Notes under the pieces: model-generated | Database searches by the model: none | What the model saw: the letters and a program-made list of their open reading frames with translations, nothing else | Told to the model about the DNA's origin: nothing | Shown: positions 1 through 11,553 of the stretch, one piece after another | Position numbering within the stretch: the first letter of the stretch is position 1 | Layout: each line of letters starts with the position of its first letter | Assembly (NCBI GenBank): GCA_963711515.1 | Contig: CAVQEL010000006.1 | Span: 14,072 to 78,071, forward strand | DNA length: 64,000 bases | DNA from: an uncultured Planctomycetota bacterium | GTDB taxonomy: Bacteria > Planctomycetota > Planctomycetia > Pirellulales > PALSA-1355 | Direction of reading: 5' to 3' | Program-made: the position numbers and the translations under genes

Positions 1-3000
1 TCTTTCGGTCCCAAATCGATGCCAATGAACTGACGGGCGAGCAAGATCCGAACGTCCAGTTGATCGATTTTGAGCATCCCGAACGGAATCATTTCCTAGC
101 GATCAATCAGTTCCGAATCGACACGCCAGGCTGCGTTAAGAATTGCATCATTCCCGACATCGTGTTGTTCGTGAACGGACTGCCTTTGGTGGTGGTGGAG
201 TGCAAGGATGCCAACCAGTACACGTCAAACCCAATGTACGAGGCGTTTAAGCAGTTGATGCGGTATGGCGATCAACGGGAGGAAACAAGGCTCGCTGGGC
301 TACGGGAGGGCGAACCCAGGTTGTTCTTCACCAACCAGATTCTGATTCGCACCTGCGGCGAGAAAGCCGACTTCGGCACGATCACTTCAACCGACGAGGA
401 GTTCTTTTTCCCTTGGAGGGATATTCATCCTGAAAAGTACCGCAACTACAAGCCGCCATTGGGTAAGGAACGCCAGCAGGAGAAGTTGATCCAAGGGATG
501 CTTCCGAAGGAAACCCTGCTGGATTTGATTCGTACTTGCACGGTCTTCATGGATGTGGGCAAGTCGCGGGCAAAGATCGTCGCTCGGTATCAGCAGTACC
601 GCGCCGTGTCCAAAATCATCGACCGACTGCGAACGGGCGATACCCCCGTCAAACGCTCGGGCGTAGTTTGGCACACACAGGGGTCGGGCAAGTCCCTGAC
701 GATGGTCTTCGTGATCCGCAAGTTGCGGGTGTGCGACGACCTAAAGGACTTGAAGGTCTGCCTCATCAACGACCGCAAGGATTTGGAGAAGCAACTAGGG
801 GAAACCGCCCAACTCGCAGGGGAGCAGGTCTCGTATATCAGTAGCTCGGAAGAGTTGAAAGCAAAACTATCGACCAGCACTTCGAATTTGAACATGGTGA
901 TGGTCCACAAGTTCCAAGAGAACCCAAATCGGGATGTGCCTGAATACCTGGAAGAAGTATTGCAGGTGCCCAAGTTCGAGTCATTTGGCGTCGTGAATGA
1001 GTCCGAACGTATCCTGCTGATGATCGACGAAGCCCATCGCACTCAGTCGGGCGACCTGGGCGACAATCTGTTCGCGGCGTTTCCCAACGCGACGCGGCTG
1101 GCGTTTACTGGCACGCCATTGATCGTGGACAAAACCCACCAACCAACATTAGAGCGGTTTGGCGGCGAGTACATCGACAAATACAAATTGCAGGATGCCG
1201 TGGATGACGGGGTGACGGTACAGATTGTGTACGAGGGGAAGACGGCGGATTCGGCGGTGTCGCACAAAACCGAGTTCGACAGGAAGGTGGATGAACTCGC
1301 CAGCGATCACATCGAATCGCAAATGCGGAAATCAGAGAATCGCGTGGCGTTGTTCAAATACGCCAAGGAACACAACCTCCTGTTCGAAGATTTGGTTCAA
1401 CAGCGAACCGCCGAGGAAATTCTGAAACTCAAAGCCAAATGGGGAACCAGCGACGACTTGTTTGAAGCCGAGCCGCGCATCAAGGAGATTGCCGCCGACT
1501 TGGTGAACCACTACATCGCCCACATCCTGCCGAACGGATTTAAAGCCCAGGTGGTTTGCACCTCGAAAATCGCCGCCGTGCGCTATGGGAAGTTCATCGA
1601 TGAGGCAATTGCCCAGCGGTTGGCACAGGAACAAGCCAAGCCCGACTGGACTGGCGCGCCTGAGGATTTGAGTGATACGGATCGTCCCAAGTATCGAGAC
1701 GACGAACTCTGCAAGCAGATTGCCTTTCTTAAATCGGCAGTCGTGGTTTCGTCCGAGGGAACGAACGAGCGGGCGATCATCACCGAAGCCCGCAAGAAAG
1801 CCCAGCAGATGGATGCCGTCGAGAATTTCAAACGCAAGTTCGACTATGACGATCCGAACAAGGCGGATACGGGCGTCGCCTTTCTGGTGGTTTGCGACAT
1901 GCTGCTCACTGGCTTCGACGCGCCGAATGAGCAGGTAATGTACATCGATAAGAAAGTGAAGGATCACAACTTGCTGCAAACGATTGCACGAGTGAACCGG
2001 ATCGCCCGTGGCAAAACTCGTGGCTACATCGTGGACTACGTTGGCTTAACCAAACACTTGAAGGCGGCTTTGTCCATCTACGGTGCCGACGACCAGAAGG
2101 ATCTTGAAGACGGAATCGTAGATATTTCCAGCGAAGTGCCGCTGCTGGAGACACGATACAACAGACTGCTGCAACTGTTCACCGAGAAGAAAGTCGTTGA
2201 GATCGAGAACTTCGTCCAGCAGAAGATCAAATCGCCAGCCCAGGAACTGGCTGTGTTGGAGCAAGCAGTGGGCATTTTAGAGGACGTGAAGACCCGCACA
2301 AACTTCGAGGTCTTCCTGAAGCAATTCTTGCAGAGTATGGATATCATCCTGCCGAACTCCGAGGCATTTCCCTATCGAAGTTCCCGCGAAGCGGTTTGGC
2401 TACATCATGGCGCACGCCGAAGGAACGTTATAAGGACGATTCGCTCGTTATCACGGGTGCGGGCGAAAAAATCCGCAAGTTGATCGACGAGTACTTAATT
2501 GGTCTCGGTATCAATCCAAAGATCCCGCCAGTCGAGTTGTTTTCACCTGGCTTCATTGCGCAATTGGACAAAAGCCAATCGCCACAAGCCAAAGCAAGCG
2601 AGATGGAACACGCGATCCGCAAACACTGCAAGGTGCATCTGGATGAAGATCCAGTTCTGTATGAGAAAGTGAGCGAGAAACTGGAGGCAGCGATTCTCAG
2701 ATACAAAGAAAACTGGGACGCACTTTGCCAGGAGTTGTTCGTCTTGAGGGAGGAAGCCCTTGCTGGACGCATGGAAGACGACAACGGCGTGAGTAAAAAG
2801 GCTGCGCCCTTCTACGACCTCATCGGGCAGATTGCGTTTGGAAAAGAGGGTGTGCCTTCCGAGCAACGCGAGCAGGTAAAAGTCCTGGTGGACGAGATGT
2901 TGGGCAAAATGAAACACTCGATTGGAATAATCAATTTCTGGGAACGACCGACCGAGGTGAGCAGGTTGAGGGGTGATTTGTCCAACCTGATGGTTGTTTC

Positions 3001-3091
3001 GGGTATCGATGTCATCGCCGACAAGAGCGGAAAGATTGTGGCAGAGATCACCCAATTGGCGAAAGTTCGACAGAAGGACATCCTCGAATGA
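1..3091 (+). CDS. hsdR: Type I restriction enzyme R subunit (HsdR). 5'-partial at window edge. Apparent frameshift(s) near 2390-2430 split it into ORFs 60..2483 and 2396..3091.
   Basis: The reading frame is open from nt 3. The N-terminal PD-(D/E)xK motif 'FVNGLPLVVVECKD' is present, as is the helicase DEAH box 'LMIDEAHRTQSG' and motif VI 'QTIARVNRIARG'. The C-terminal 'ITGAGEKIRKLIDEY' block sits in a second frame. Confidence 0.85.
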
Positions 3092-3782
3092 GGCGGACTT
3101 ACCGCGACATTGAATACACCCTCCAGCGCAGCCGACGCAAGACTGCCAGCATCTATGTCGAGCGCGATGGGCAACTGACCGTGATTGCGCCCAAGGAACT
3201 ATCCGACCAGCAAATTGAAAAAGTACTGGAGGAAAAGCGGCGTTGGATTTACAAGCACCAAGCCGAATGGTTTGACCTCAACGCGGCGCAGGTTCAGCGG
3301 GAGTATGTCAACGGCGAAGGGTTTCTTTATTTGGGACGCTCGTACCGCCTGAAACTGGTGCCAAAGCAAGGGGAAGTTGTTGCTGCTGAAGGACGGGCAT
3401 TTTTGCCTGCGAGCCGACCATAATCCAGTCACCAAAGCCGCTGCGGCATTTCGGGAGTTTTATCGCAGCGAAGGGTCTGAAAAGAATCGGTCAGCGGGTC
3501 GCCTTTTACCAGAATCGCATGGACCTGACGCCAAATGGCATACGTGTCATTGACCTGAAAAATCGCTGGGCGTCTTGCACGCCCGAGGGCAAACTCAACT
3601 TCCACTGGAAGTGCATGATGTCGCCCGCAACGATCCTCGATTACATCGTCGTCCACGAACTCGCCCATTTGATTCACCCCAACCATTCGGCAGCGTTTTG
3701 GAACGAGGTCGATAAAGTGCTGCCAGATTACGGCGAACGAAAAGAGTGGCTACGGGTGCATGGGGCGGGGATGGATTTGTGA
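3088..3782 (+). CDS. YgjP/DUF45-family Zn-dependent metallohydrolase (M48-like), often found next to hsdR. Apparent frameshift near 3390-3420.
   Basis: The N-terminal part 'RRTYRDIEYTLQRSRRKTASIYVER' is in one frame. The C-terminal part 'RWASC...DYIVVHELAHLIHPNHSAAFW' (HExxH) is in another frame. The two halves together give about 230 aa. Confidence 0.7.
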
Positions 3783-3943
3783 TGCCCGAGGGAAAGATAT
3801 TGGTCGATGTGCAGCAGATCATCTCACTCCCTGAAGCGGTGGAGTATCAAATCACGATTCGAGAGAAAAGGCGCAAGGAGGTGCGTGTCGTAACTTACAG
3901 GCAAGACAACGAGCGACAAGTACCAGAATCAATATGGAGTTAA
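3783..3943 (+). CDS. Small hypothetical protein (about 53 aa) between the DUF45 gene and nuclease-fold gene A.
   Basis: ORF only. It is tightly packed in the same orientation. No recognisable motifs. Confidence 0.25.
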
Positions 3944-3950
3944 CCGATCA

Positions 3951-4958
3951 ATGCAGTTTCTCGAAACAATCGATGGAAAAAATGGCGAAGAACTCACTTC
4001 CGCCGTGTTGAAGTTCTTGCTCGTTAACTCAGCCACGATGCGAGACCGGTTTGTCCGTCATCTTCGGCATCAACTCCCCGCTTCCAAAACGCCTACTTTC
4101 CGGGATGGCATCATTTGTCAGTGTGAAGCCGGAACGTCCGACGATGGTGAGGCGGGACGAATCGACTTGCTAATTCGTGAGAACAGAGGCATGGTGCTCG
4201 GACTTGAAAACAAGTTCTGGGCGAATTTCACGGAGAACCAACCTAAGAAGTATTGGGGTGATCTTGTCAGCCTAGCGGAGAATGTTGAGGCGAACTGTCG
4301 CCTCTTGTTGCTGGTCCCACGATTACGGGCAAGTGAAATCGCAGAGCATCTTAGGGAACAGGAAGTGCAAAGCAAATGCGCTATTTTGTATTGGGAGGAC
4401 ATTCAAGAGGATTTGCGCGAGGTTGCTCGGCGAGATCGAACCGAAGTAGCCGCTGCGGCGATTTTCCTTGATGAGTATGTTGGACGCCAAGTGCTTGACA
4501 CGGTGATCGATATACTTCCTCACCAAATTGTTGGTTCGCAAGTCGAGATTCCGAACGACTTTCACTACGACTTCCTGTACAAGTTGAAGACTTGTCTGCC
4601 AAATCCAGAGCGAATTCGTCCAGCGAAATCATGGATTGGTTTCTACTTTAGCGTCGCCCCAAGCGACTCAACCAATCGTCCAAGGCAATGGTTTGGTTTC
4701 TATCGGGACGGATCCACATCGGAAGTTGCCATGGGAATCGATACTGGAATGGCGCATTACACATCGGAGTTGCCTCCCGGAGCACGATTTACAGATGGTT
4801 TTGTCACTTCTGTTTTTGTCGAGATTGCCTATGACGGGACGATTTCGACGACTCAAGATTGGAAGAAGCGGCTGGTGCTGGTAGTCGATCCATTGACGAA
4901 AGCAGTTCAATCCTATTTTGCATCGCCGACAGCGAGTCGAATTCCAACCGACGAGTGA
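3951..4958 (+). CDS. Hypothetical protein A with an N-terminal RecB-like PD-(D/E)xK nuclease fold plus about 200 aa C-terminal domain of unknown function.
   Basis: The motif 'GRIDLLIRENRGMVLGLENKFWANFTENQPKKYW' carries D...ExK...QxxxY. The C-terminus has an internal repeat 'SWIGFYFS...RQWFGFYRDGS'. GC content is lower than in the core genome. Confidence 0.6.
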   Translation: MQFLETIDGKNGEELTSAVLKFLLVNSATMRDRFVRHLRHQLPASKTPTFRDGIICQCEAGTSDDGEAGRIDLLIRENRGMVLGLENKFWANFTENQPKKYWGDLVSLAENVEANCRLLLLVPRLRASEIAEHLREQEVQSKCAILYWEDIQEDLREVARRDRTEVAAAAIFLDEYVGRQVLDTVIDILPHQIVGSQVEIPNDFHYDFLYKLKTCLPNPERIRPAKSWIGFYFSVAPSDSTNRPRQWFGFYRDGSTSEVAMGIDTGMAHYTSELPPGARFTDGFVTSVFVEIAYDGTISTTQDWKKRLVLVVDPLTKAVQSYFASPTASRIPTDE

Positions 4959-5008
4959 TCAAAGGTTGGACGAACGAGAATGCCGTCTGGTGAATTAAGG
5001 CGCCGACA

Positions 5009-5320
5009 ATGATCCACCTCCTCCTCCTCGCCATCACCTGTCTGATCTCCGCCGACACCCTCACTGGCAAAGTCGTAAAGGTAACGGACGGCGACACGAT
5101 CGCCGTTCTTGTGAATAACCGCCAGATCAAAGTTCGCGTGAGCGAAATCGACGCCCCCGAGCACAGACAAGACCTTGGTCAAAAGAGCCAACAAGCCCTA
5201 GCTGATCTGGTTTTTGGCAAAGAAGTGCGGAGCGTGACTCACGAGGAAGACCGTTACGGGCGCACGATTGGCGATTTATTCGTCGGACAGACCGATGTGA
5301 ACGAAAGAACTCTAACCTGA
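5009..5320 (+). pseudogene. SNase-like thermonuclease, copy 1, C-terminally truncated (about 100 aa, lacks last third of the fold).
   Basis: It has an N-terminal signal-like 'MIHLLLLAITCLISA' followed by 'GKVVKVTDGDTI...VRVSEIDAPE...DRYGRTIGDLFVGQTDVNE'. It then diverges directly into a stop, whereas the family normally continues with about 40 aa after 'VNE'. Confidence 0.6.
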
Positions 5321-5335
5321 CGTGATTCCCGTCCC

Positions 5336-5617
5336 ATGAAATTCTTCCGCTACCGCCGTCCGTCGCTAAAAACGCTCCTGGGCATCACCAAGGCCAAGAA
5401 GCGGATCAAGAAGGACCTCGGCATTACGGCCCTGCTCAAGCCGGTTCGATGGTGGCCGAATCAGAAGCGGCGGATCAAAAGGAGGGTCGGCTACTATTCG
5501 AAAACCGGGCGGCTAGTTCGGGATGGATTGCCGAGGCCTAAAGGGTGTTTGGTATTGGTGGTTCTGGCGATCTCTTCGTCGGCAATTCTGAGGTTGGCAT
5601 GGTCAATAAGTCAGTAA
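5336..5617 (+). CDS. Small K/R-rich protein with C-terminal hydrophobic helix (93 aa). It lies within the roughly 360 bp segment that interrupts thermonuclease copy 1.
   Basis: The sequence 'MKFFRYRRPSLKTLLGITKAKKRIKKDLGITALLKP...' is highly basic and is followed by 'CLVLVVLAISSSAIL'. The downstream sequence is AT-rich. Confidence 0.25.
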   Translation: MKFFRYRRPSLKTLLGITKAKKRIKKDLGITALLKPVRWWPNQKRRIKRRVGYYSKTGRLVRDGLPRPKGCLVLVVLAISSSAILRLAWSISQ

Positions 5618-5672
5618 TTAAATTGATGACAGACCAAGAACAAACCCCTTTTGAACACAAGTGTAGACGAGG

Positions 5673-6773
5673 TTGGCGATGACGGGTCGAATCTACCGCC
5701 TGGATGACCATGACTCGAACCTGCTCCCAATGGATGAAGCCCCCTACGATTCCGAGAAGCTCTTGCAGGAACTGCTGGCGGCCTACCCAGACTTGTTAGC
5801 CGGCGAACAGATAAATACTGACGAACCAAGGCGCTGGGTGCTTGTCACCCGTGAGATGTCAGTTCCTGGCGACCAAGAAGGTTCGGGCAAGTGGTCGCTC
5901 GACCACCTATTTCTAGATCAAGATGCGATTCCTACGCTGGTCGAAGTAAAAAAGGGTACCAATAGCGACATCCGAAGGAAGGTGATCGGTCAGATGCTTG
6001 ACTATGCTGCCAATGCGGTTGCTTATTGGCCTGTCGAGGAGATTCAAGCTAGATTTCGATCTCGATGCGATAAAGAGAACATCGATGCAAATGCCGCACT
6101 TGCAGAACTCCTCGGAGAACAGGGCATCGACCCGATTGATTTTTGGCAGCAAGTGAAAATAAACCTTCAAGCTGGCCGCATACGCATGGTGTTTATTGCT
6201 GACAAGATTCCGACCGAACTTCGAAGGATTGTCGAATTCCTCAATGCGCAAATGGACCCAGCAGAAGTTCTCGCCATTGAAATCAAGCAGTTTGTAGGCG
6301 AGGGCGTGAAGACTCTCGTGCCTCGTGTGTTGGGACAAACCGAGTCGGCTCAGGACAAAAAGCATCCAAGTCGTGGAAAACAATGGACGGATTGGGATTC
6401 GGCCCTAGCAGACATTTCGAACCCCGCTGTCATCTCATTCTTTCAACAGGAGCTTAAATCAAACAGGGAATCGAACCTCGGCAAACGCTTTCTTCGCTAC
6501 CGCCTGTCCGACAAGCCAAGATGGTTTGTGACAGCACGTCAGAAGTACGCATATGTATGGCAACGAGGACGATTCGCAGGCGATATCGAATTCTGGCATA
6601 ACGGATTGAGTCAATCTGCTGAAATCAAGCCCGTGGATGACGATTCGTGTCTCCGATTCTCCCTTTACGAGCCTGAAGACTTTGAGTTTTTCTACACGAC
6701 GGCAATGCAATCTCCTAAATCGATTCAGTGGCAGACCAACGCTGCTGATGACGAAATCGAACCGCAGGATTGA
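5673..6773 (+). CDS. Hypothetical protein B with an N-terminal RecB/NucS-like PD-(D/E)xK nuclease fold plus about 240 aa C-terminal domain. It is a paralogous arrangement to protein A, and the start codon is uncertain.
   Basis: The motif 'WSLDHLFLDQDAIPTLVEVKKGTNSDIRRKVIGQMLDYAANAV' carries D...EVK...QxxxY. It is preceded by an AT-rich putative promoter region at 5600-5670. Confidence 0.6.
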   Translation: MAMTGRIYRLDDHDSNLLPMDEAPYDSEKLLQELLAAYPDLLAGEQINTDEPRRWVLVTREMSVPGDQEGSGKWSLDHLFLDQDAIPTLVEVKKGTNSDIRRKVIGQMLDYAANAVAYWPVEEIQARFRSRCDKENIDANAALAELLGEQGIDPIDFWQQVKINLQAGRIRMVFIADKIPTELRRIVEFLNAQMDPAEVLAIEIKQFVGEGVKTLVPRVLGQTESAQDKKHPSRGKQWTDWDSALADISNPAVISFFQQELKSNRESNLGKRFLRYRLSDKPRWFVTARQKYAYVWQRGRFAGDIEFWHNGLSQSAEIKPVDDDSCLRFSLYEPEDFEFFYTTAMQSPKSIQWQTNAADDEIEPQD

Positions 6774-6803
6774 CGAAGGTTGAACAAGAATGCTGGAGAA
6801 GCA

Positions 6804-7040
6804 ATGATCCACCTCCTCCTCGCCCTCACCTGCCTGATCTCCACCGACACGCTCACCGGCAAAGTGGTGAAGGTGACGGCTGGCGACACGATCACCGTTC
6901 TTGTCGATCATCACCAAGTCAAAATCCGATTGAGCGAAATCGACGCCCCCGAGCGCCGACAAGACCTTGGTCAAAAAAGCAAAGCCGCCCTTGCTGAGCT
7001 GGTGTTTGGCAAAAGAGGTATGATTCAAGGGTCGCCATAA
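6804..7040 (+). pseudogene. SNase-like thermonuclease, copy 2, truncated after 'LVFGK' by IS3 insertion.
   Basis: Copy 2 reads 'MIHLLLALTCLISTDTLTGKVVKVTAGDTITVLV...SEIDAPE...LVFGK', which is about 80% similar to copy 1 at DNA level, including the 5' leader. It diverges at about 7011 into the IS3 end. Confidence 0.6.
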
Positions 7041-7570
7041 AGAGGCTCGGTCGAACATTGACCCCCTTCCCGAAACCTGATCCAGGGAATATGAGAGAAT
7101 CCAGCCGGCCGATATGGCCGGAAAAAATTCGCCATGAAGAAGCGACATAGTGCAGAACAGATCGTAGGGCTGTTGCGGCAAGCGGACGTAGCGCTGGGGA
7201 AAGGGGAGAAGGTTGCCGAGGTCTGCAAGCAGCTGGGAATCAGCGAGCAGACGTACTATCGTTGGCGGACGAAGTACGGCGGGATGGACCCACAGATGGC
7301 GCGTCAGCTGCAGGAGTTGCAGAAGGAGAACGCGCGGTTGAAGCGGCTGGTAGCGGACCAGGCGTTGGACAATCAGATTCTGCGGGAGGCCGCCCGCCCA
7401 AACTGGTGAGCCCCGAGCGCCGGCGTCGGACCGTGGCGGCGGTCCGCAGTCGCTTGGGGCCGCAGCATGTTTCAGAACGCCGGCTGTGCCGTGTGCTGGG
7501 CCAGTCGCGCTCGACGCAGCGCTATCGTCGGCGTAAGCCGGACGACGATCGTCGGAAGCGTCCGTCAACA
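7015..7570 (+). mobile_element. IS3-family insertion sequence, 5' fragment. OrfA is intact (7134..7409) and the OrfB start is truncated at about 7565.
   Basis: OrfA reads 'MKKRHSAEQIVGLLRQ...QTYYRWRTKYGGM...LQKENARLKRL' (HTH plus leucine zipper). The +1-frame OrfB N-terminus 'RLCRVLGQSRSTQRYRRRKP' ends abruptly. Confidence 0.7.
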
Positions 7571-7629
7571 TGCGCACATTTGATTTTGGGTTGGTGCCTG
7601 GAGCTGGGTGTTTCCTTGTTGGTTTTCGT

Positions 7630-8990
7630 CTGTCTTTGTTCCCCCTAGGGGGAACAAAATCGCCCAGTTTATGCGACCGTCATTGCGGACTCGATTTGCT
7701 TCTCTTCGCGGAGCCGATCCATGTCGAGGTAGACGCGCTTGCCCCAGCGGGTGCCGGCGATGTGACGTAGTCGGGCGGCCACCAGCATCACGGCACTCTT
7801 GCCGTCGGGGAAGTTGCCGACCACGCGCGTGCGACGGCGTATCTCTCGCATGATCCGCTCCAGCACGTTGTTCGTGCGGATGCGCACCCAATGCTCACGC
7901 GGGAAGGCCATGTAGGACAGCGTCTCGTCCACGCCGTCGCGCACGACCGAGGCCGCCTGGCCCAGCCGCATGCTGGTGAGCTTCTCGGCCACCAGCGCGG
8001 CCTTGTCTCGGGCCGCCTGACGATCTTCCTGGGCGTGAATCGCTTTGAGCATGGCCATCACTTCCTTCACCTTGCCCTTGGGCACCACGCTCATCACGTT
8101 GCGATACCAGTGCACCATGCACCGCTGCCAGGCCGCCTCGGGATAAAACTCGCCCACCGCTTCGAGCAGGCCCAGCGACTTGTCGCTCGTGAACAATTGC
8201 ACGCCCGCCAGGCCGCGCTGTTTGAGATGCCGCAGGAAGTTCCGCCAGCTCTCGGTGTCTTCCTTCGTGCCCTCGACCACGCCCAGAATCTCGCGATAAC
8301 CGTCGCCGCGCACGCCAATCGCCACCAGCACGGCCACGTTCTTCACCTCGCCGCCCCACGATCGCTTCAGCCAGATGCCATCGAGGTACACGTAGGCGTG
8401 CTGGCCCTCGATCGGCTGATTCCGCCAGGCTTCGATCTGCGTGTAAATCTTCTGATTCAACTCGCTGACCGTGCTCGGGCTGACCCGCGTTCCCCAGAGT
8501 GCTTCGGTAATGTCCTCGACGCGCCGCACCGAGACGCCGGCCAGGTACATCTCGACCAATGCCTCCTCCACGCTCGACTCGCGACGCCGGTAACGCTCGA
8601 TGATCTGCGTCTCGAACGGCAGGTTCCGCAGCCGCGGAACCGCCAGCGTCACTTCGCCAGCCTGCGTCTGCAGCTTCCGGTCGTAGTGCCCGGCTCGCGT
8701 ATCCAGCCGCTCCGGCGAACGGGCATAACGCTTGGCACCGCACAACGCGTCGGCCTCCGCCTCCAGCAGACTGTTGAGCGTCTCTTCGACCGTCTGCCGC
8801 ACCACCTCGCCCACGTGCGAGCGAATCTTCTCCTCCTCGATCCGAATCACGCCCTCAAAGTTCCCGCCATTTGCCGATCCTGCTACACTGTCCATCGGGC
8901 AGTCCTTTCGTGCTGATAGAGTTCGTGTGACAACAAACTTCTACCAGCTCCAGGACTGCCCTTTCAATTTGTGCGCACAATTCCAGACGT
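7630..8990 (-). mobile_element. IS256-family insertion sequence with an apparently intact transposase (CDS 7669..8895, 408 aa).
   Basis: The mutator-type transposase contains 'YVYLDGIWLKRSWGGEVKNVAVLVAIGVRGDGYREILG' and 'SDKSLGLLEAVGEFYPEAAWQRCMVHWYRN'. A 10 bp inverted repeat, gggcagtcct/aggactgccc, sits in the 5' leader at 8908-8973. Element ends are approximate. Confidence 0.75.
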
Positions 8991-9640
8991 TATCCCGGTA
9001 ATCTTGGCCACCGCGATCTTGCTGTTGTCGTAACTGATCCGCCGGGGCACGCCCCCGAAGAAGTCGAAGGCCCGCCGGTGCCCCTCCTGGAACGTCTCGG
9101 TGCATTCGTGCGGAAACACCTGGCAGAAGATGGCGTCCGAGTAGGGCAAGGTCATCACGAACATCGCCACCTTGACCGGCTCGCCACCAAGGCTGACTTG
9201 AGCCTCCCCAAAATCGACTTGCGCTTCGCCCGGTCGGTGTGCCAGCGGCACGAAGACCTCGGCCTGGCCTTGCTTCCAGGTCCGCACGGCATCCTTCACG
9301 ATCGTCAGGCCACCGTCGTACTGGTGCTCATCCCGCAGCCGGTCGAAGATCCGCTGCGCCGTATGACGCTGCTTCTTCGGGGCCTGCTGATCCTGTTGCA
9401 GGATCGTGTGGATGATCGGCAGGAACCGCTCCAGCTTCCGCTTCTGTCGAGGCACTTTCAGCTGGTACCCGGCTGGCTCCTCGTGCTTGAGGATCCGCTG
9501 CAGCGTCCGCCACTCGATCTGGTACTCCCTACAAGCCGCCCGCTTGCTCAGCTCCCGCGTCAGCACGCGACGACGAATCTCAACCCATCGATCCATGTCC
9601 TTGAACACCTGTGTTCCTCACCATCAATAACGGTCGTATT
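8964..9640 (-). mobile_element. istA: IS21-family fragment. The IstA N-terminal 214 aa is present, the C-terminus is cut by the IS256 insertion, and istB is absent.
   Basis: The fragment reads 'MFKDMDRWVEIRRRVLTRELSKRAACREYQIEWRTLQRIL...SYDNSKIAVAKI' and then diverges. Confidence 0.65.
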
Positions 9641-10114
9641 GGTTCTTCCGAACCAAATATCCGTTACACATTGGCGAGTTCGGCCAAGGACGCCGCTTCT
9701 CACGATCCTACGCAGATCTTCCCGCACCAAACGCTGGCTTATTCAAGCGCCGTTCACATCCGGCAAGATACGCGGGATAACAAGCTTCGGCATGCGCTGC
9801 GCCTGTTAACTGAAGCGTCAAAAGTTTGGGCGTGCGGAAAAACAGTCGCGCAGTTAACAGCCCAGCTTCACATCGCTGTTAACCCGAGAGCGCCGAGTTC
9901 GAAAGGGTTCCGTCCGGTTCGAGGGGGACCGGAAGAGACTCGAACTCAGCAAGTCCTTGTCAGCCAAGCACTTCTTGAAATCGCTCTCGCGCCTATAGTT
10001 TCGAAGAGGGTTCTTTCCGGGGAGGCAGGTGAGCAAGACGTCGCAGGCCGGTCCGGTCCAAGGCGGTTGCAATCCGCGGCCCGGTGTTTCGTGTTTTCGT
10101 TCGTCCGCGATCCG

Positions 10115-11357
10115 TCAACCGATCTCCTTGGCCACTTTCCGTGCCAGCGCCGCGTCCCGTTCCGCATAGATTTGCGAAACATCCGCGCTCGAGTGCCCCA
10201 GGCACACTTGCGCCGCTTCCAGCCCGAACCGCCGCCGGATTTCCGTGGCGGCCGTGTGTCGCAGCCGGTGGGGCGACCAGCGGGGCACGATGCGCGTCTC
10301 GGCGGGGAGCTGGTCGTCGTCCTGGTGGGCTTTCCGATCGGCGGTGTCGCAAGCCCGGTGGATCGCCCGCCGGTAACTGTCACGCGTGTACCTGGTGCCC
10401 GGCTGCTTCTTGGGTCGCCGCTTTCGTCGGTTGCGTTGCGAGGGCTGGACCGGCGACTTGCGGGCCTCCCGCAGTGCCTCGGCTCGCTTGCGTTCGGCTT
10501 CGGCCGGCGAAAAGCAAAAGTCCTCGGAATCCCGTAGCAAGTAGGGCGGCGAGGACGACTTGGGCTCGCTCACCGATGAAGATCAGCCGCGGCCGGCCGT
10601 GGTGTTCGGTCTTGTGCGACCGTGGCCCGTAGCACCACACGTCCCCCGTGCGGTCGACGTCGGCGGGCCGCAGCTCGCAAATCTCCGAAGGCCTGGCCCC
10701 GGTGAGCCGTTGCAGTCGGACCATGTCGGCCACGATCGGCGGCAGGTATGGCAACGTCCGTTCGACCAGGTCGTCAGAAACCGGGCCGACCGGCGACGTT
10801 TCCCGGGCCTCGGTCCGCCCCCGTTTGAGCGGCTGCACGGCTGCGAGCGCGTGGTACGTCTCCCCGGCGACGAGCTGCTGCTCGACGCCCCAGCGGAAGA
10901 TGTGCTTGAGGCGGCGGACCCTGTGATTGACCACCCCACGTGACGCCGCGGCGATCCGCTTGCCATTCCAATCTGTAAAACCATTCACGAGTAGGGCCCG
11001 GGCCGCGATCAACTTGAGCGGCCCAAACTCTTTGGCCGCCAGCGCGGCATAGAGCGAGAGCACCGGCCGCATGGCGTAAAGAAACTCGCTGACTTCTCCA
11101 GTCGGTCGCGCGTTCTTCCGGTAGTACGCCACGGCGTGTTGTCGGAAGGCCTCGAACAGCTCGGCGATCGTGAGGCCGTCGCTAGCGGGCTGCTGGAAAT
11201 CAGTGGCCGTATACTCCGCGATCTTGGCGGAGTATTTTTGGCGGCTCTCGGTGGTGCCCCACTTTCCCAGGTAGTGGGTCTTGCCGGCGAGCTTGACGAT
11301 GGCCTGGCCGGATGCCTTGTGCAGCCGGTAGGTCGGGACGCGATCACGGTTGGCCAC
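10115..11357 (-). CDS. int: Tyrosine-type site-specific integrase (phage integrase family). Apparent frameshift around 10380-10570 (ORFs 10380..11357 and 10115..10573).
   Basis: The box I arginine is present in 'LTGARPSEICELR'. The C-terminal part in the other frame carries 'HRLRHTAATEIRRRFG...LGHSSADVSQIYAERD' (HxxR...Y). It lies next to the tRNA 3' end. Confidence 0.75.
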
Positions 11358-11480
11358 GGGCGCGATCCTTGCTCGAAGTGCTGGGGTGTAGTACTACACC
11401 CTTGCTCTTCGTCGAACAGGCCGCGCTGCCAACCGCTGGCAGGTAATCCAACGCTAGATTTCGGCGGGGTTTGTGACTAG

Positions 11481-11553
11481 TGCTCCCTGTTGGACTTGAA
11501 CCAACAACCCTCTGATTAAGAGTCAGATGCTCTGCCAATTGAGCTAAGGGAGC
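11481..11553 (-). tRNA. tRNA-Lys (anticodon CTT), 73 nt, CCA not encoded.
   Basis: Minus-strand sequence is GCTCCCTTAGCTCAATTGGCAGAGCATCTGACTCTTAATCAGAGGGTTGTTGGTTCAAGTCCAACAGGGAGCA. Manual folding gives a 7 bp acceptor stem, a D-arm GCTC/GAGC, an anticodon stem TCTGA/TCAGA with loop CTCTTAA, and a T-arm TTGGT/TCAAGTC/CAACA. Confidence 0.85.

What the first reader, a model, noticed from the sequence alone, without database searches (positions are those of the whole stretch)
3783..7040. Tandem pair of [RecB-like PD-(D/E)xK protein + SNase thermonuclease] cassettes next to type I R-M: candidate uncharacterised nuclease/defence module
Two adjacent, same-strand cassettes have the same architecture: a 335-366 aa protein whose N-terminus carries a complete RecB/Cas4/NucS-type motif set, followed by an SNase-like secreted thermonuclease gene. 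In A the motif set is D..ENK..QPKKY and in B it is D..EVK..QMLDY. Each nuclease domain is followed by a C-terminal domain of about 200 aa that I cannot place. The two thermonuclease copies and their 5' leaders are about 80% identical at DNA level, so the cassette was duplicated and has since diverged. The pair sits directly downstream of hsdR and its DUF45 partner, inside a lower-GC tRNA-linked island. Nuclease plus accessory-domain proteins adjacent to R-M genes in islands is the typical context of anti-phage systems, and I do not recognise this domain combination as a named system.
Basis: partly seen in the sequence, partly recalled or inferred. Interest (0 to 1): 0.75.

Follow-up and report, generated by a model that had tools for sequence, protein, structure and literature searches.

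The report
Two solo nucleases between thermonuclease remnants
The "duplicated two-gene cassette" is really two unrelated stand-alone nuclease genes, likely anti-phage candidates, stacked in a decaying genomic island and separated by broken thermonuclease gene copies, so it is not a new two-gene defence system.

Summary
The genes exist as described, and both large proteins carry conserved PD-(D/E)xK motifs. The "duplicated cassette" reading fails.

- **A and B are unrelated.** A (3951-4958) is a PF14281 nuclease. B (5679-6773) is a distant, NucS-like relative of the untested PADLOC candidate PDC-S11. BLASTP gives E 0.93 and hhalign 0.1%.
- **Only the SNase start is repeated.** The repeat covers the 5' part of the thermonuclease (SNase) gene plus its leader (84% over 205 nt).
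- **Both SNase copies are pseudogenes.** They stop at about codons 99 and 70 of about 160.
- **No SNase link elsewhere.** None of 89 loci around A or B homologues holds an SNase gene. B-type genes are solo genes with no conserved partner, sometimes beside BREX, Mrr or type I R-M genes.
- **This SNase clade is an island gene.** It recurs in planctomycete defence islands between variable cargo. Partial 5' copies flank cargo in three other loci.

Best reading: the decayed end of a tRNA-Lys island that stacks independent single-gene nuclease candidates. Modest interest.

The parts
60..3091 (+). hsdR (type I restriction subunit). It begins upstream of the window and is apparently frameshifted near 2396-2483.
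   Evidence: HSDR_N, SWI2_SNF2, T1R_D3-like. T1RH-like_C lies in the second ORF, 2396-3091. The two ORFs overlap.
3088..3782 (+). YgjP/DUF45 metallopeptidase-like partner of hsdR, split into two ORFs (3088-3423 and 3519-3782).
   Evidence: PF01863 profile positions 1-80 and 127-206 fall in separate ORFs.
3794..3913 (+). Remnant of about 40 codons of a classical PDC-S11-type (NucS_C + DUF4268) nuclease gene.
   Evidence: PADLOC PDLC04909, E 4.3e-10, profile positions 184-225 of 347. It is 67.5% identical to the PDC-S11-like gene of L091 and 80% at DNA level.
3951..4958 (+). Protein A: PD-(D/E)xK nuclease (PDDEXK_4, residues ~1-180) plus a conserved C-terminal alpha/beta domain (~185-330). Intact.
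4938..5008 (+). Repeat copy 1, leader part: the last ~20 nt of A plus the intergenic leader.
   Evidence: Alignment with 6750-6803. The stop codons of A and B fall in different registers of the shared DNA.
5009..5320 (+). SNase-A': 5' two-thirds of a thermonuclease gene. Similarity ends near 5305 (codon ~99 of ~160). Pseudogene.
   Evidence: PF00565 profile positions 1-67 of 107. Alignment with full-length relatives. tblastn.
5336..5617 (+). 93-aa very basic ORF with a hydrophobic C-terminus. Function unknown.
   Evidence: No hit in four profile libraries or in about 170 fetched loci. Internal repeat.
5679..6773 (+). Protein B: NucS-like PD-(D/E)xK nuclease domain (residues ~1-230, very conserved) plus a rare-type C-terminal domain (~240-350). 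Intact.
6804..7013 (+). SNase-B': first 70 codons of a thermonuclease gene, cut by an IS. The ORF runs on to 7040.
   Evidence: 77% identical to P0280 residues 2-71. Repeat D1. Alignment.
7014..9608 (.). Nest of IS fragments: IS3-like orfA 7134-7409, Mutator/IS256-type transposase 7669-8895 (-), and an IS21-like rve fragment 8964-9608 (-).
   Evidence: Pfam.
10115..11357 (-). Tyrosine integrase, split into two ORFs.
   Evidence: Phage_integrase E 3.2e-8 in ORF 10115-10573. ORFs.
11480..11553 (-). tRNA-Lys (CTT), the likely integration site of the island.
   Evidence: ARAGORN. The GC step lies at about 7000-11000.

Best explanation
Window 1-11553 is the decayed, tRNA-Lys-proximal end of a lower-GC integrated genomic island that carries defence cargo. 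Downstream of a type I R-M remnant (hsdR and YgjP) lies a stack of independent, single-gene nucleases: a dead classical PDC-S11 gene (3794-3913), A, and B. A and B are unrelated in sequence but share an architecture: an N-terminal PD-(D/E)xK catalytic domain joined to a C-terminal domain that resembles the MotA-CTD "double wing".

Inferred mechanism: the C-terminal domain binds a DNA feature and positions the nuclease domain to cut. No methyltransferase or other partner is needed, as in type IV restriction enzymes or Shedu-like solo nucleases.

The thermonuclease pieces are not partners of A or B. They are broken copies of a gene that recurs in planctomycete defence islands as a conserved landmark between variable cargo slots. 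The tandem look arose from recombination at that gene, which duplicated only its 5' part.

What is shown and what is inferred:
- Shown: family assignments, motifs, the fold of A, truncation of both SNase copies, and the lack of A/B-SNase linkage elsewhere.
- Inferred: DNA binding by the C-domains, the anti-phage role, and the recombination history.
For: **A and B are different families**
- BLASTP E 0.93; hhalign probability 0.1%.
- A: PF14281; 428 representatives keep both domains; model pLDDT 93 with a restriction-endonuclease-like N-domain.
- B: partial PDC-S11 match. Motifs align in register with a NucS_C+DUF4268 protein.
- The N-domain is 47-71% identical across bacterial and archaeal phyla, while the C-domain varies.

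**A and B homologues are solo genes**
- No SNase within 945 kb around 89 homologue loci.
- The 136 nearest neighbours of B homologues hit 130 Pfam families, none more than 3 times.
- Neighbour sizes and orientations vary.

**Defence context**
- (AIPR/KAP/LmuB_C, Eco57I, BREX twice, Mrr, PDC-S02, DrmC, AbiEii).

**SNase**
- Truncated copies.
- Island landmark: L090 and L175 are collinear through McrBC and a 128-aa gene. They then carry different cargo, then a conserved SNase, then different genes again.
- Partial 5' copies flank cargo in L091, L179/L180 and L097.
- The two window copies are each other's nearest relatives: 84% against 70-80% to others.
Against: - From the SNase side, the gene directly upstream is a nuclease in 5 of 10 copies examined: A, B, the PDC-S11-like gene of L091, the 337-aa D..EAK..QxxxY protein of L179, and the HNH_2 protein of L090. 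Two of them overlap the SNase start by 4 nt. Some functional coupling is therefore not excluded.
- B's nuclease fold is not confirmed structurally. The model has pLDDT below 50 over residues 37-117, and there is no Pfam hit.
- One A-family locus has no defence genes nearby.
- The very high conservation of B's N-domain is unusual for a defence gene.
- No experiment supports nuclease activity or phage defence for either family. PDC-S11 itself is untested.
Confidence: 0.65

Rival explanations
1. One reading: [PD-(D/E)xK protein + SNase thermonuclease] is a two-gene defence module that was duplicated in tandem. The two nucleases work together.
For: - The adjacency occurs twice in the window with short gaps of 30-50 nt.
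- A PDC-S11-like gene sits 31 nt upstream of an SNase in L091.
- A 337-aa protein with a D..EAK..QxxxY motif overlaps the SNase start by 4 nt beside hsdM and hsdS in L179.
Against: - 0 of 89 A or B homologue loci contain an SNase.
- 0 of 80 further SNase loci contain an A- or B-like gene.
- B homologues have no conserved neighbour.
- SNase upstream neighbours also include an HNH protein, membrane proteins, a 128-aa unknown and opposite-strand genes.
- Both SNase copies here are truncated while A and B are intact.
- The SNase has a hydrophobic, signal-like N-terminus, which suggests a different compartment. This is read from the sequence and is an inference.
- A and B are not homologous.
Confidence: 0.07
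2. The SNase gene is a docking or recombination site for exchanging defence cargo. Cassettes that carry a cargo gene plus an SNase 5' segment recombine into a resident SNase gene. This leaves an orphan 5' fragment upstream and regenerates the gene downstream. The window shows two successive events.
For: - An orphan 5' SNase fragment followed by cargo and then another SNase copy occurs in the window, L179/L180 and L097. L091 has two SNase copies around cargo, but there the upstream copy is full-length and the truncated copy lies downstream.
- Three independent breakpoints fall at codons ~87, ~94 and ~99.
- The repeat begins inside the 3' ends of A and B in different reading frames.
- The SNase is conserved between variable slots in L090 and L175.
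Against: - The breakpoints are close but not identical, so there is no precise att site.
- No recombinase lies inside the putative cassettes.
- Only 5 of 87 SNase loci show more than one SNase place: L179 and L180 are the same locus in two samples, and L125 is only a frameshift, leaving three independent loci.
- The sample is small and biased towards detectable fragments.
- Ordinary homologous or illegitimate recombination between related islands explains the same pattern.
Confidence: 0.2
3. A and/or B are not defence genes. They are accessory DNA-repair or mobile-element maintenance nucleases (NucS/EndoMS-like mismatch or branched-DNA processing) that merely travel on islands.
For: - B's catalytic half resembles NucS-type nucleases. 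It is unusually conserved across phyla, as expected for a constrained enzymatic role.
- Some homologues sit beside housekeeping genes.
- The A homologue P0124 has no defence neighbours.
Against: - The distribution is patchy and cross-domain, and the immediate contexts vary.
- Homologues recur next to BREX, Mrr, R-M and other defence genes.
- The C-terminal domain is variable, as in specificity modules.
- PDC-S11 was derived from genes embedded in defence systems.
Confidence: 0.2
4. The whole segment is non-functional wreckage. A and B are on their way to becoming pseudogenes and nothing here works.
For: hsdR, YgjP and the integrase are split. A PDC-S11 gene is reduced to 40 codons. Both SNases are truncated. 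Three IS fragments are nested.
Against: - A and B are full-length relative to their homologues and keep every invariant residue.
- The frameshifts could be assembly errors in a metagenome-assembled contig. This could not be tested here.
Confidence: 0.1

Closest known systems
PADLOC PDC-S11 (untested single-gene phage defence candidate; NucS_C-like nuclease + DUF4268), from Payne et al., bioRxiv 10.1101/2024.01.29.577857
   Same: B's residues 1-242 match a PDC-S11 profile (E 1.5e-10). The D..E.K..Q..Y motifs and the following beta-alpha unit align with a typical member (26% identity over 147 aa). Both are solo genes found beside R-M or BREX. A dead typical member lies at 3794-3913.
   Different: B lacks DUF4268 and carries a different C-terminal domain. 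B's own subfamily is much more conserved, has no Pfam model, and can sit in tandem with a typical PDC-S11 gene (L035).
Pfam PF14281 PDDEXK_4, and structural relatives AF1548 (1y88) and NucS (2vld)
   Different: A carries a conserved extra domain of about 150 aa that the Pfam model does not cover. No member of this subfamily has been studied. The match to PADLOC PDC-S26 is only partial (88 residues, E 7.7e-6).
Solo restriction-like defence nucleases (type IV enzymes such as Mrr or MspJI; Shedu SduA)
   Same: One polypeptide combines a PD-(D/E)xK cutter with a separate DNA-reading domain. There is no cognate methyltransferase, and the genes lie in defence islands.
   Different: Domain order and the reading domain differ. 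No sequence membership was found: SduA_C appears only at E 0.086 in 2 of 53 B-family members. Target and trigger are unknown.
T4 MotA C-terminal "double-wing" DNA-binding domain (5jlt), and YjbR/YdhG-like domains
   Different: This is fold-level resemblance only, at about 10% identity. DNA binding was not tested.
Staphylococcal nuclease / YncB-type thermonuclease (PF00565)
   Same: Both small ORFs are clearly derived from this family, 77-80% identical to 160-aa relatives.
   Different: Both are truncated at codons ~99 and 70, so they lack the C-terminal third of the fold. They are remnants, not working genes.

Membership tests
PD-(D/E)xK nuclease superfamily, Pfam PDDEXK_4 (protein A) | Profile match above Pfam's gathering score | tested here: met
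   PF14281: 45.9 bits against a cutoff of 22.3, residues 12-177.
PD-(D/E)xK nuclease superfamily, Pfam PDDEXK_4 (protein A) | Conserved catalytic D ... (D/E)-x-K residues | tested here: met
   D72, E86 and K88 are invariant in 92 sequences. Q97, P98, K100 and Y101 are at least 90% conserved.
PD-(D/E)xK nuclease superfamily, Pfam PDDEXK_4 (protein A) | Restriction-endonuclease-like alpha-beta-beta-beta-alpha-beta core fold | tested here: met
PD-(D/E)xK nuclease superfamily, Pfam PDDEXK_4 (protein A) | Metal-dependent nuclease activity | not testable with these tools
   Needs biochemistry.
PADLOC PDC-S11 (protein B) | Match to the family's nuclease-half profile, with NucS-type D..E.K..Q..Y motifs | tested here: met
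   PDLC04916 E 1.5e-10, residues 1-242 against profile positions 1-206 of 358. Motifs are in register with L035:7249-8346 and invariant in 53 homologues.
PADLOC PDC-S11 (protein B) | C-terminal DUF4268 domain, as in the one typical member scanned (L035:7249-8346) | tested here: not met
   The typical member L035:7249-8346 has DUF4268 at E 6.6e-31. B and 52 relatives have no DUF4268 hit even at E up to 5.
PADLOC PDC-S11 (protein B) | PD-(D/E)xK fold of the N-terminal domain | tested here: inconclusive
   The AF2 model is unreliable over residues 37-117 (pLDDT below 50). There is no PDB or Pfam sequence hit.
PADLOC PDC-S26 (protein A) | Full-length profile match | tested here: not met
   Only residues 14-101 match, against profile positions 49-133 of 413, E 7.7e-6.
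SNase thermonuclease PF00565 (ORFs 5009-5320 and 6804-7040) | Sequence homology to the family | tested here: met
   Copy A: 41.3 bits against a cutoff of 21. Copy B: 17 bits, below cutoff, but 77% identical to P0280 over 70 aa.
SNase thermonuclease PF00565 (ORFs 5009-5320 and 6804-7040) | Complete domain (about 160-aa protein in this clade) | tested here: not met
   The profile is covered only over positions 1-67 and 1-38 of 107. Alignment with 33 full-length relatives. No 3' fragment exists elsewhere in the window.
Multi-gene defence system [PD-(D/E)xK + SNase] | Conserved co-occurrence of the two genes across genomes | tested here: not met
   0 of 89 loci from the A/B side. 0 of 80 additional loci from the SNase side. 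No shared neighbour family.
Defence-island or R-M-embedded candidate (guilt by association) | Homologues recurrently adjacent to known defence genes | tested here: met
   A homologue among AIPR/KAP/LmuB_C/MZB genes. B homologues beside BREX twice, Eco57I, Mrr plus PDC-S11, and McrBC, NERD, DrmC and AbiEii. Other loci are not defence-related.
tRNA-integrated genomic island | Integrase next to a tRNA gene, with a compositional shift | tested here: met
   tRNA-Lys 11480-11553. Integrase fragments 10115-11357. GC 0.50-0.54 against 0.60-0.68. The far end of the island lies outside the window, so att repeats were not tested.

The most novel reading that the evidence does not exclude
In a clade of planctomycete (and some other) defence islands, the thermonuclease gene acts as a docking point for swapping defence cargo. 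Incoming segments carry cargo plus an SNase 5' end and recombine into the resident gene. This leaves orphan 5' fragments that break within a stretch of about 12 codons. The window records two such events. A weaker version holds that the SNase is co-transcribed with, and assists, whichever nuclease sits upstream.
Probability: 0.15. Interest if true: 0.55.

Novelty: new member of a known kind. Interest (0 to 1): 0.33.

Why it matters
The result removes a false lead: there is no new two-gene nuclease system here. It also sharpens two real ones.

- **B's family.** It is very large (more than 6,896 database hits), spans bacteria and archaea, has a strikingly conserved solo nuclease domain, and has no Pfam model. 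It is only loosely tied to the untested candidate PDC-S11.
- **A's family.** About 430 representatives keep a second, uncharacterised domain.

Both would be cheap to test as single genes. The C-terminal domains that resemble the MotA double wing suggest how these proteins might read DNA.

The recurrent orphan SNase fragments that flank cargo hint at how defence islands in Planctomycetota reshuffle. That would be of moderate interest if a proper census confirms it.

Tried and rejected
- **A and B as diverged paralogues.** Rejected by BLASTP and profile-profile comparison.
- **Solved-structure relatives by sequence.** None for A, B or the B profile.
- **PHROGs and NCBIfam.** Nothing for A or B.
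- **B structure.** AF2 with 53 close homologues gave a poor N-domain. The afdb50 library was unavailable.
- **Pfam scan of 53 B-family members at E up to 5.** Only noise, including SduA_C at E 0.086.
- **Extension of SNase-A into the 93-aa ORF.** tblastn stretched the alignment across the stop codon in the same frame, but identity after codon 99 is at chance level. I treat it as unrelated.
- **A precise att site inside SNase.** The breakpoints differ (codons 87, 94, 99), so it is not supported.
- **Viral carriage.** B relatives occur in only 3 IMG/VR contigs. The A alignment was too diverse to scan.
- **Plasmids.** No A relatives. 26 records hold B relatives, all annotated as hypothetical.
- **Supplements of the PDC paper.** No description of PDC-S11, PDC-S26 or PDC-S02.
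- **Promoter and terminator scan.** Uninformative: 0 promoter-like sites, and all terminator-like sites lie inside ORFs.

Full report
**1. What is in the sequence**

On the + strand the window begins inside hsdR. ORF 60-2483 carries HSDR_N, SWI2_SNF2 and T1R_D3-like. ORF 2396-3091, in another frame, carries T1RH-like_C.

A YgjP/DUF45 gene follows, split into 3088-3423 and 3519-3782 (Pfam profile positions 1-80 and 127-206). The remaining features are:

| Coordinates | Feature |
|---|---|
| 3951-4958 | Protein A, 335 aa |
| 5009-5320 | SNase-like ORF, 103 aa |
| 5336-5617 | Very basic ORF, 93 aa |
| 5679-6773 | Protein B, 364 aa from the ATG that matches homologues |
| 6804-7040 | SNase-like ORF, 78 aa |
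| 7134-7409 | IS3-like orfA |
| 7669-8895 (-) | Mutator/IS256-type transposase |
| 8964-9608 (-) | IS21-like rve fragment |
| 10115-11357 (-) | Tyrosine integrase split into two ORFs (Phage_integrase E 3.2e-8) |
| 11480-11553 (-) | tRNA-Lys |

These rest. GC is 0.50-0.54 over 1-7000 and 0.60-0.68 elsewhere. The placement in a low-GC, tRNA-linked island next to type I R-M genes is therefore correct. The island is visibly decayed.

**2. The repeat**

The only repeated DNA is 5017-5221 / 6809-7013, at 84% identity. Weaker similarity runs about 60 nt further upstream, through the leaders and into the last ~20 nt of both A and B. There the two stop codons sit in different registers of the shared sequence.

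A and B themselves show no similarity (BLASTP E 0.93; hhalign probability 0.1%). So a thermonuclease 5' segment was duplicated, not a two-gene cassette.

Among nine copies of this SNase clade, the two window copies are each other's closest relatives. They are 84% identical at nucleotide level, against 70-80% to the others, and share MIHLLL and RQDLGQKS. The duplication is therefore old and lineage-internal.

**3. Both thermonucleases are remnants**

The closest relatives are about 160 aa. In a 36-sequence alignment, copy A follows the family to ...FVGQTDVNE (codon ~99), then diverges and stops. Copy B follows it to ...LVFGK (codon 70), where the IS junction lies.

tblastn with a full-length relative finds no other SNase piece in the 64-kb window. 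The missing third includes the C-terminal helices of the SNase fold. From established work on staphylococcal nuclease fragments I infer that neither product can fold into an active enzyme.

The family starts with a short hydrophobic segment (MTTLLLALTCLISAD...) directly before the first beta-strand. This looks like an export signal or membrane anchor. That reading comes from the sequence and was not tested.

**4. Protein A**

- Pfam PDDEXK_4 passes its threshold.
- The close family is small, 12 hits. A profile search finds 428 representatives at 50% clustering, most about 320-360 aa and matching over both halves.
- In 92 of them D72, E86 and K88 are invariant. Q97, P98, K100 and Y101 are nearly so, as are W247, G249, F250 and W304 in the C-terminal half.
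- The AlphaFold model is confident (pLDDT 93, pTM 0.85).
- Foldseek against PDB gives nothing significant, so no close solved relative exists.
- The PADLOC PDC-S26 match is partial and weak.

**5. Protein B**

- There is no Pfam, NCBIfam or PDB sequence match.
- PADLOC PDC-S11 matches residues 1-242 (E 1.5e-10).
- The family is very large: more than 6,896 hits among the 8,000 candidates scored.
- It occurs in Planctomycetota, Acidobacteriota, Chloroflexota, Actinomycetota, Deinococcus, cyanobacteria and methanogenic archaea. The N-terminal ~230 residues are 47-71% identical across them.
- In 53 aligned members, D77, D82, E91, K93, Q107 and Y111 are invariant. The C-terminal ~130 residues fall into at least three types, and B's type is rare.
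- A typical PDC-S11 protein (L035:7249-8346) is NucS_C-like plus DUF4268. It aligns with B so that RIDLL...VVVELKR...QAIRYA matches SLDHL...TLVEVKK...QMLDYA (26% over 147 aa).
- B is therefore a divergent, DUF4268-less relative of that family.

PDC systems are 145 untested candidates derived from genes embedded in BREX, DISARM and type I R-M loci.

**6. A third, dead nuclease gene**

The short ORF 3746-3943 hits PDC-S11 profiles at positions 184-225 (E 4.3e-10). It is 67.5% identical to part of a PDC-S11-like gene in locus L091 and 80% identical at DNA level. The slot after YgjP once held a classical PDC-S11 gene. This is direct evidence of gene turnover at this spot.

**7. Is either nuclease linked to SNase elsewhere?**

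From the A/B side:
- I fetched 9 loci by exact-protein look-up and 80 loci for B relatives from one genome per species, 945 kb in all.
- tblastn with both window SNase fragments and S. aureus nuclease found nothing.
- The nearest ORFs of at least 120 aa on each side of the 80 B loci hit 130 Pfam families, none in more than three loci. Their sizes and orientations vary freely.
- PADLOC hits among them include PDC-S02 (3), PDC-S11 (2), mad2 (2), type I R-M parts, DrmC, AbiEii and PD-T4-6.

Individual contexts:

| Gene | Context |
|---|---|
| A-like P0122 | between AIPR and KAP NTPase, with LmuB_C and a DEAD/MZB helicase nearby |
| A-like P0124 | among ordinary genes |
| B-like | after PglZ-BrxL |
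| B-like | convergent with brxL on a Sinorhizobium plasmid |
| B-like | near an Eco57I-type gene |
| B-like | between Mrr and a typical PDC-S11 gene |
| B-like | at the edge of housekeeping genes |

From the SNase side, 80 additional metagenomic SNase loci contain no A- or B-like gene. The two-gene hypothesis fails the co-occurrence test in both directions.

**8. What the SNase is doing there**

The closest full-length relatives lie in defence islands or mobile elements on the same strand as their neighbours:

| Locus | Gene order |
|---|---|
| L090 | McrBC - 128 aa - HNH-HIT - DUF8426-HNH_2 - SNase - DUF6508 |
| L175 | PvuRts1I-like - McrB - McrC - 128 aa - 128 aa - SNase - ScoMcrA_N - NOV_C |
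| L174 | next to an integrase and an rve fragment |
| L179/L180 | hsdM - hsdS - 337 aa - SNase, the last two overlapping by 4 nt |

L090 and L175 are collinear through McrBC and the first 128-aa gene. They then carry different cargo, then the conserved SNase, then different genes again. So this SNase is a conserved landmark between variable slots.

Partial 5' copies recur:
- **L091:** SNase (full) - 5'-truncated PDC-S11-like gene - SNase cut at codon ~94 and fused to a YgjP fragment.
- **L179/L180:** an SNase fragment ending at codon 87 lies directly before hsdM.
- **L097, a distant lineage:** a partial copy, a membrane protein, a full SNase, then hsdM.

Type I R-M genes lie within the flanks of 4 of 45 SNase loci of at least 5 kb.

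Half of the ten upstream neighbours examined are nucleases: A, B, the PDC-S11-like gene, the L179 337-aa protein with D..EAK..QxxxY read by eye, and HNH_2. The others are unrelated. I read this as the nuclease-rich composition of defence islands, not a partnership. I keep the docking-site idea as the most novel reading not excluded.

**9. Mechanism proposed, and its status**

Shown:
- A and B are intact and keep every family-invariant residue.
- A has a restriction-endonuclease-like fold.
- Both have a C-terminal domain with moderate structural similarity to a known DNA-binding fold.
- Neither family has a conserved partner or methyltransferase.

Inferred:
- Each acts alone. The C-domain reads a DNA feature and the N-domain cuts.
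- Self-DNA is spared because the target is a modification, structure or DNA end typical of invaders, as in type IV enzymes or Shedu.
- The variable C-domain of the B family would set specificity.

The main doubts are the unusually high conservation of B's catalytic half and some non-defence contexts. I give 0.65 to the overall explanation and about 0.5 to the specific claim that A and B are anti-phage.

**10. Verdict**

The interpretation as a duplicated two-gene module is not supported. The components belong to known or catalogued, though uncharacterised, families. Interest is modest. The value lies in two cheaply testable solo-nuclease families and a small, unproven pattern of SNase-bounded cargo in planctomycete islands.

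Noticed in passing
window 5336-5617: A 93-aa, extremely basic ORF with an internal repeat (KKRIKKDLG / KRRIKRRVG) and a hydrophobic C-terminus. GC3 is 0.70, and it lies in the same frame as the truncated SNase-A. It has no match in Pfam, NCBIfam, PADLOC or PHROGs, or in about 170 fetched loci.
   Followed up: partly
window 60-3091, 3088-3782, 10115-11357: hsdR, YgjP/DUF45 and the tyrosine integrase are each split into two ORFs. These are either real frameshifts (island decay) or assembly errors in a metagenome-derived contig.
   Followed up: partly
window 7014-9608: Nested insertion sequences. An IS3-like element cuts SNase-B and is itself cut by a Mutator/IS256-type element. An IS21-like integrase-core fragment follows.
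   Followed up: partly
window 3794-3913: A 40-codon remnant of a classical PDC-S11 (NucS_C + DUF4268 type) gene sits between YgjP and A. It is 80% identical at DNA level to a gene in L091.
   Followed up: yes
L035 5060-8349: Mrr-type restriction gene, then a B-family gene, then a typical PDC-S11 gene (NucS_C + DUF4268), in tandem on one strand. The two nuclease subfamilies coexist and are not redundant copies.
   Followed up: partly
L179 3257-3520 and 8001-8483 (same in L180); L097 425-730 and 1653-2135: A partial 5' SNase copy lies upstream of cargo (hsdM-hsdS-337 aa, or a membrane protein), which is followed by a full SNase. This is the same layout as in the window, seen in unrelated samples.
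   Followed up: partly
L091 8001-8420: An SNase truncated at codon ~94 is fused in frame to a fragment of a YgjP/DUF45 gene (IVVYDLAHLHRPNYSPA). This locus therefore reshuffles the same three building blocks as the window: SNase, a PDC-S11-like gene and YgjP.
   Followed up: partly
L009 1555-9158; L181 5971-12657: B-family genes sit just beyond the brxL end of BREX systems in two unrelated replicons, a planctomycete chromosome and a Sinorhizobium plasmid.
   Followed up: no
proteins P0016, P0062: Two 320-aa B-family hits carry precomputed DDE transposase Pfam domains (PF01609, PF13586). They are probably chimeric gene calls at IS insertions.
   Followed up: no
L179 6991-8004: A 337-aa protein with no profile hit but a C-terminal D..EAK..QxxxY motif (read by eye). 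It overlaps the SNase start by 4 nt, downstream of hsdM and hsdS. It may be another uncatalogued solo nuclease.
   Followed up: no
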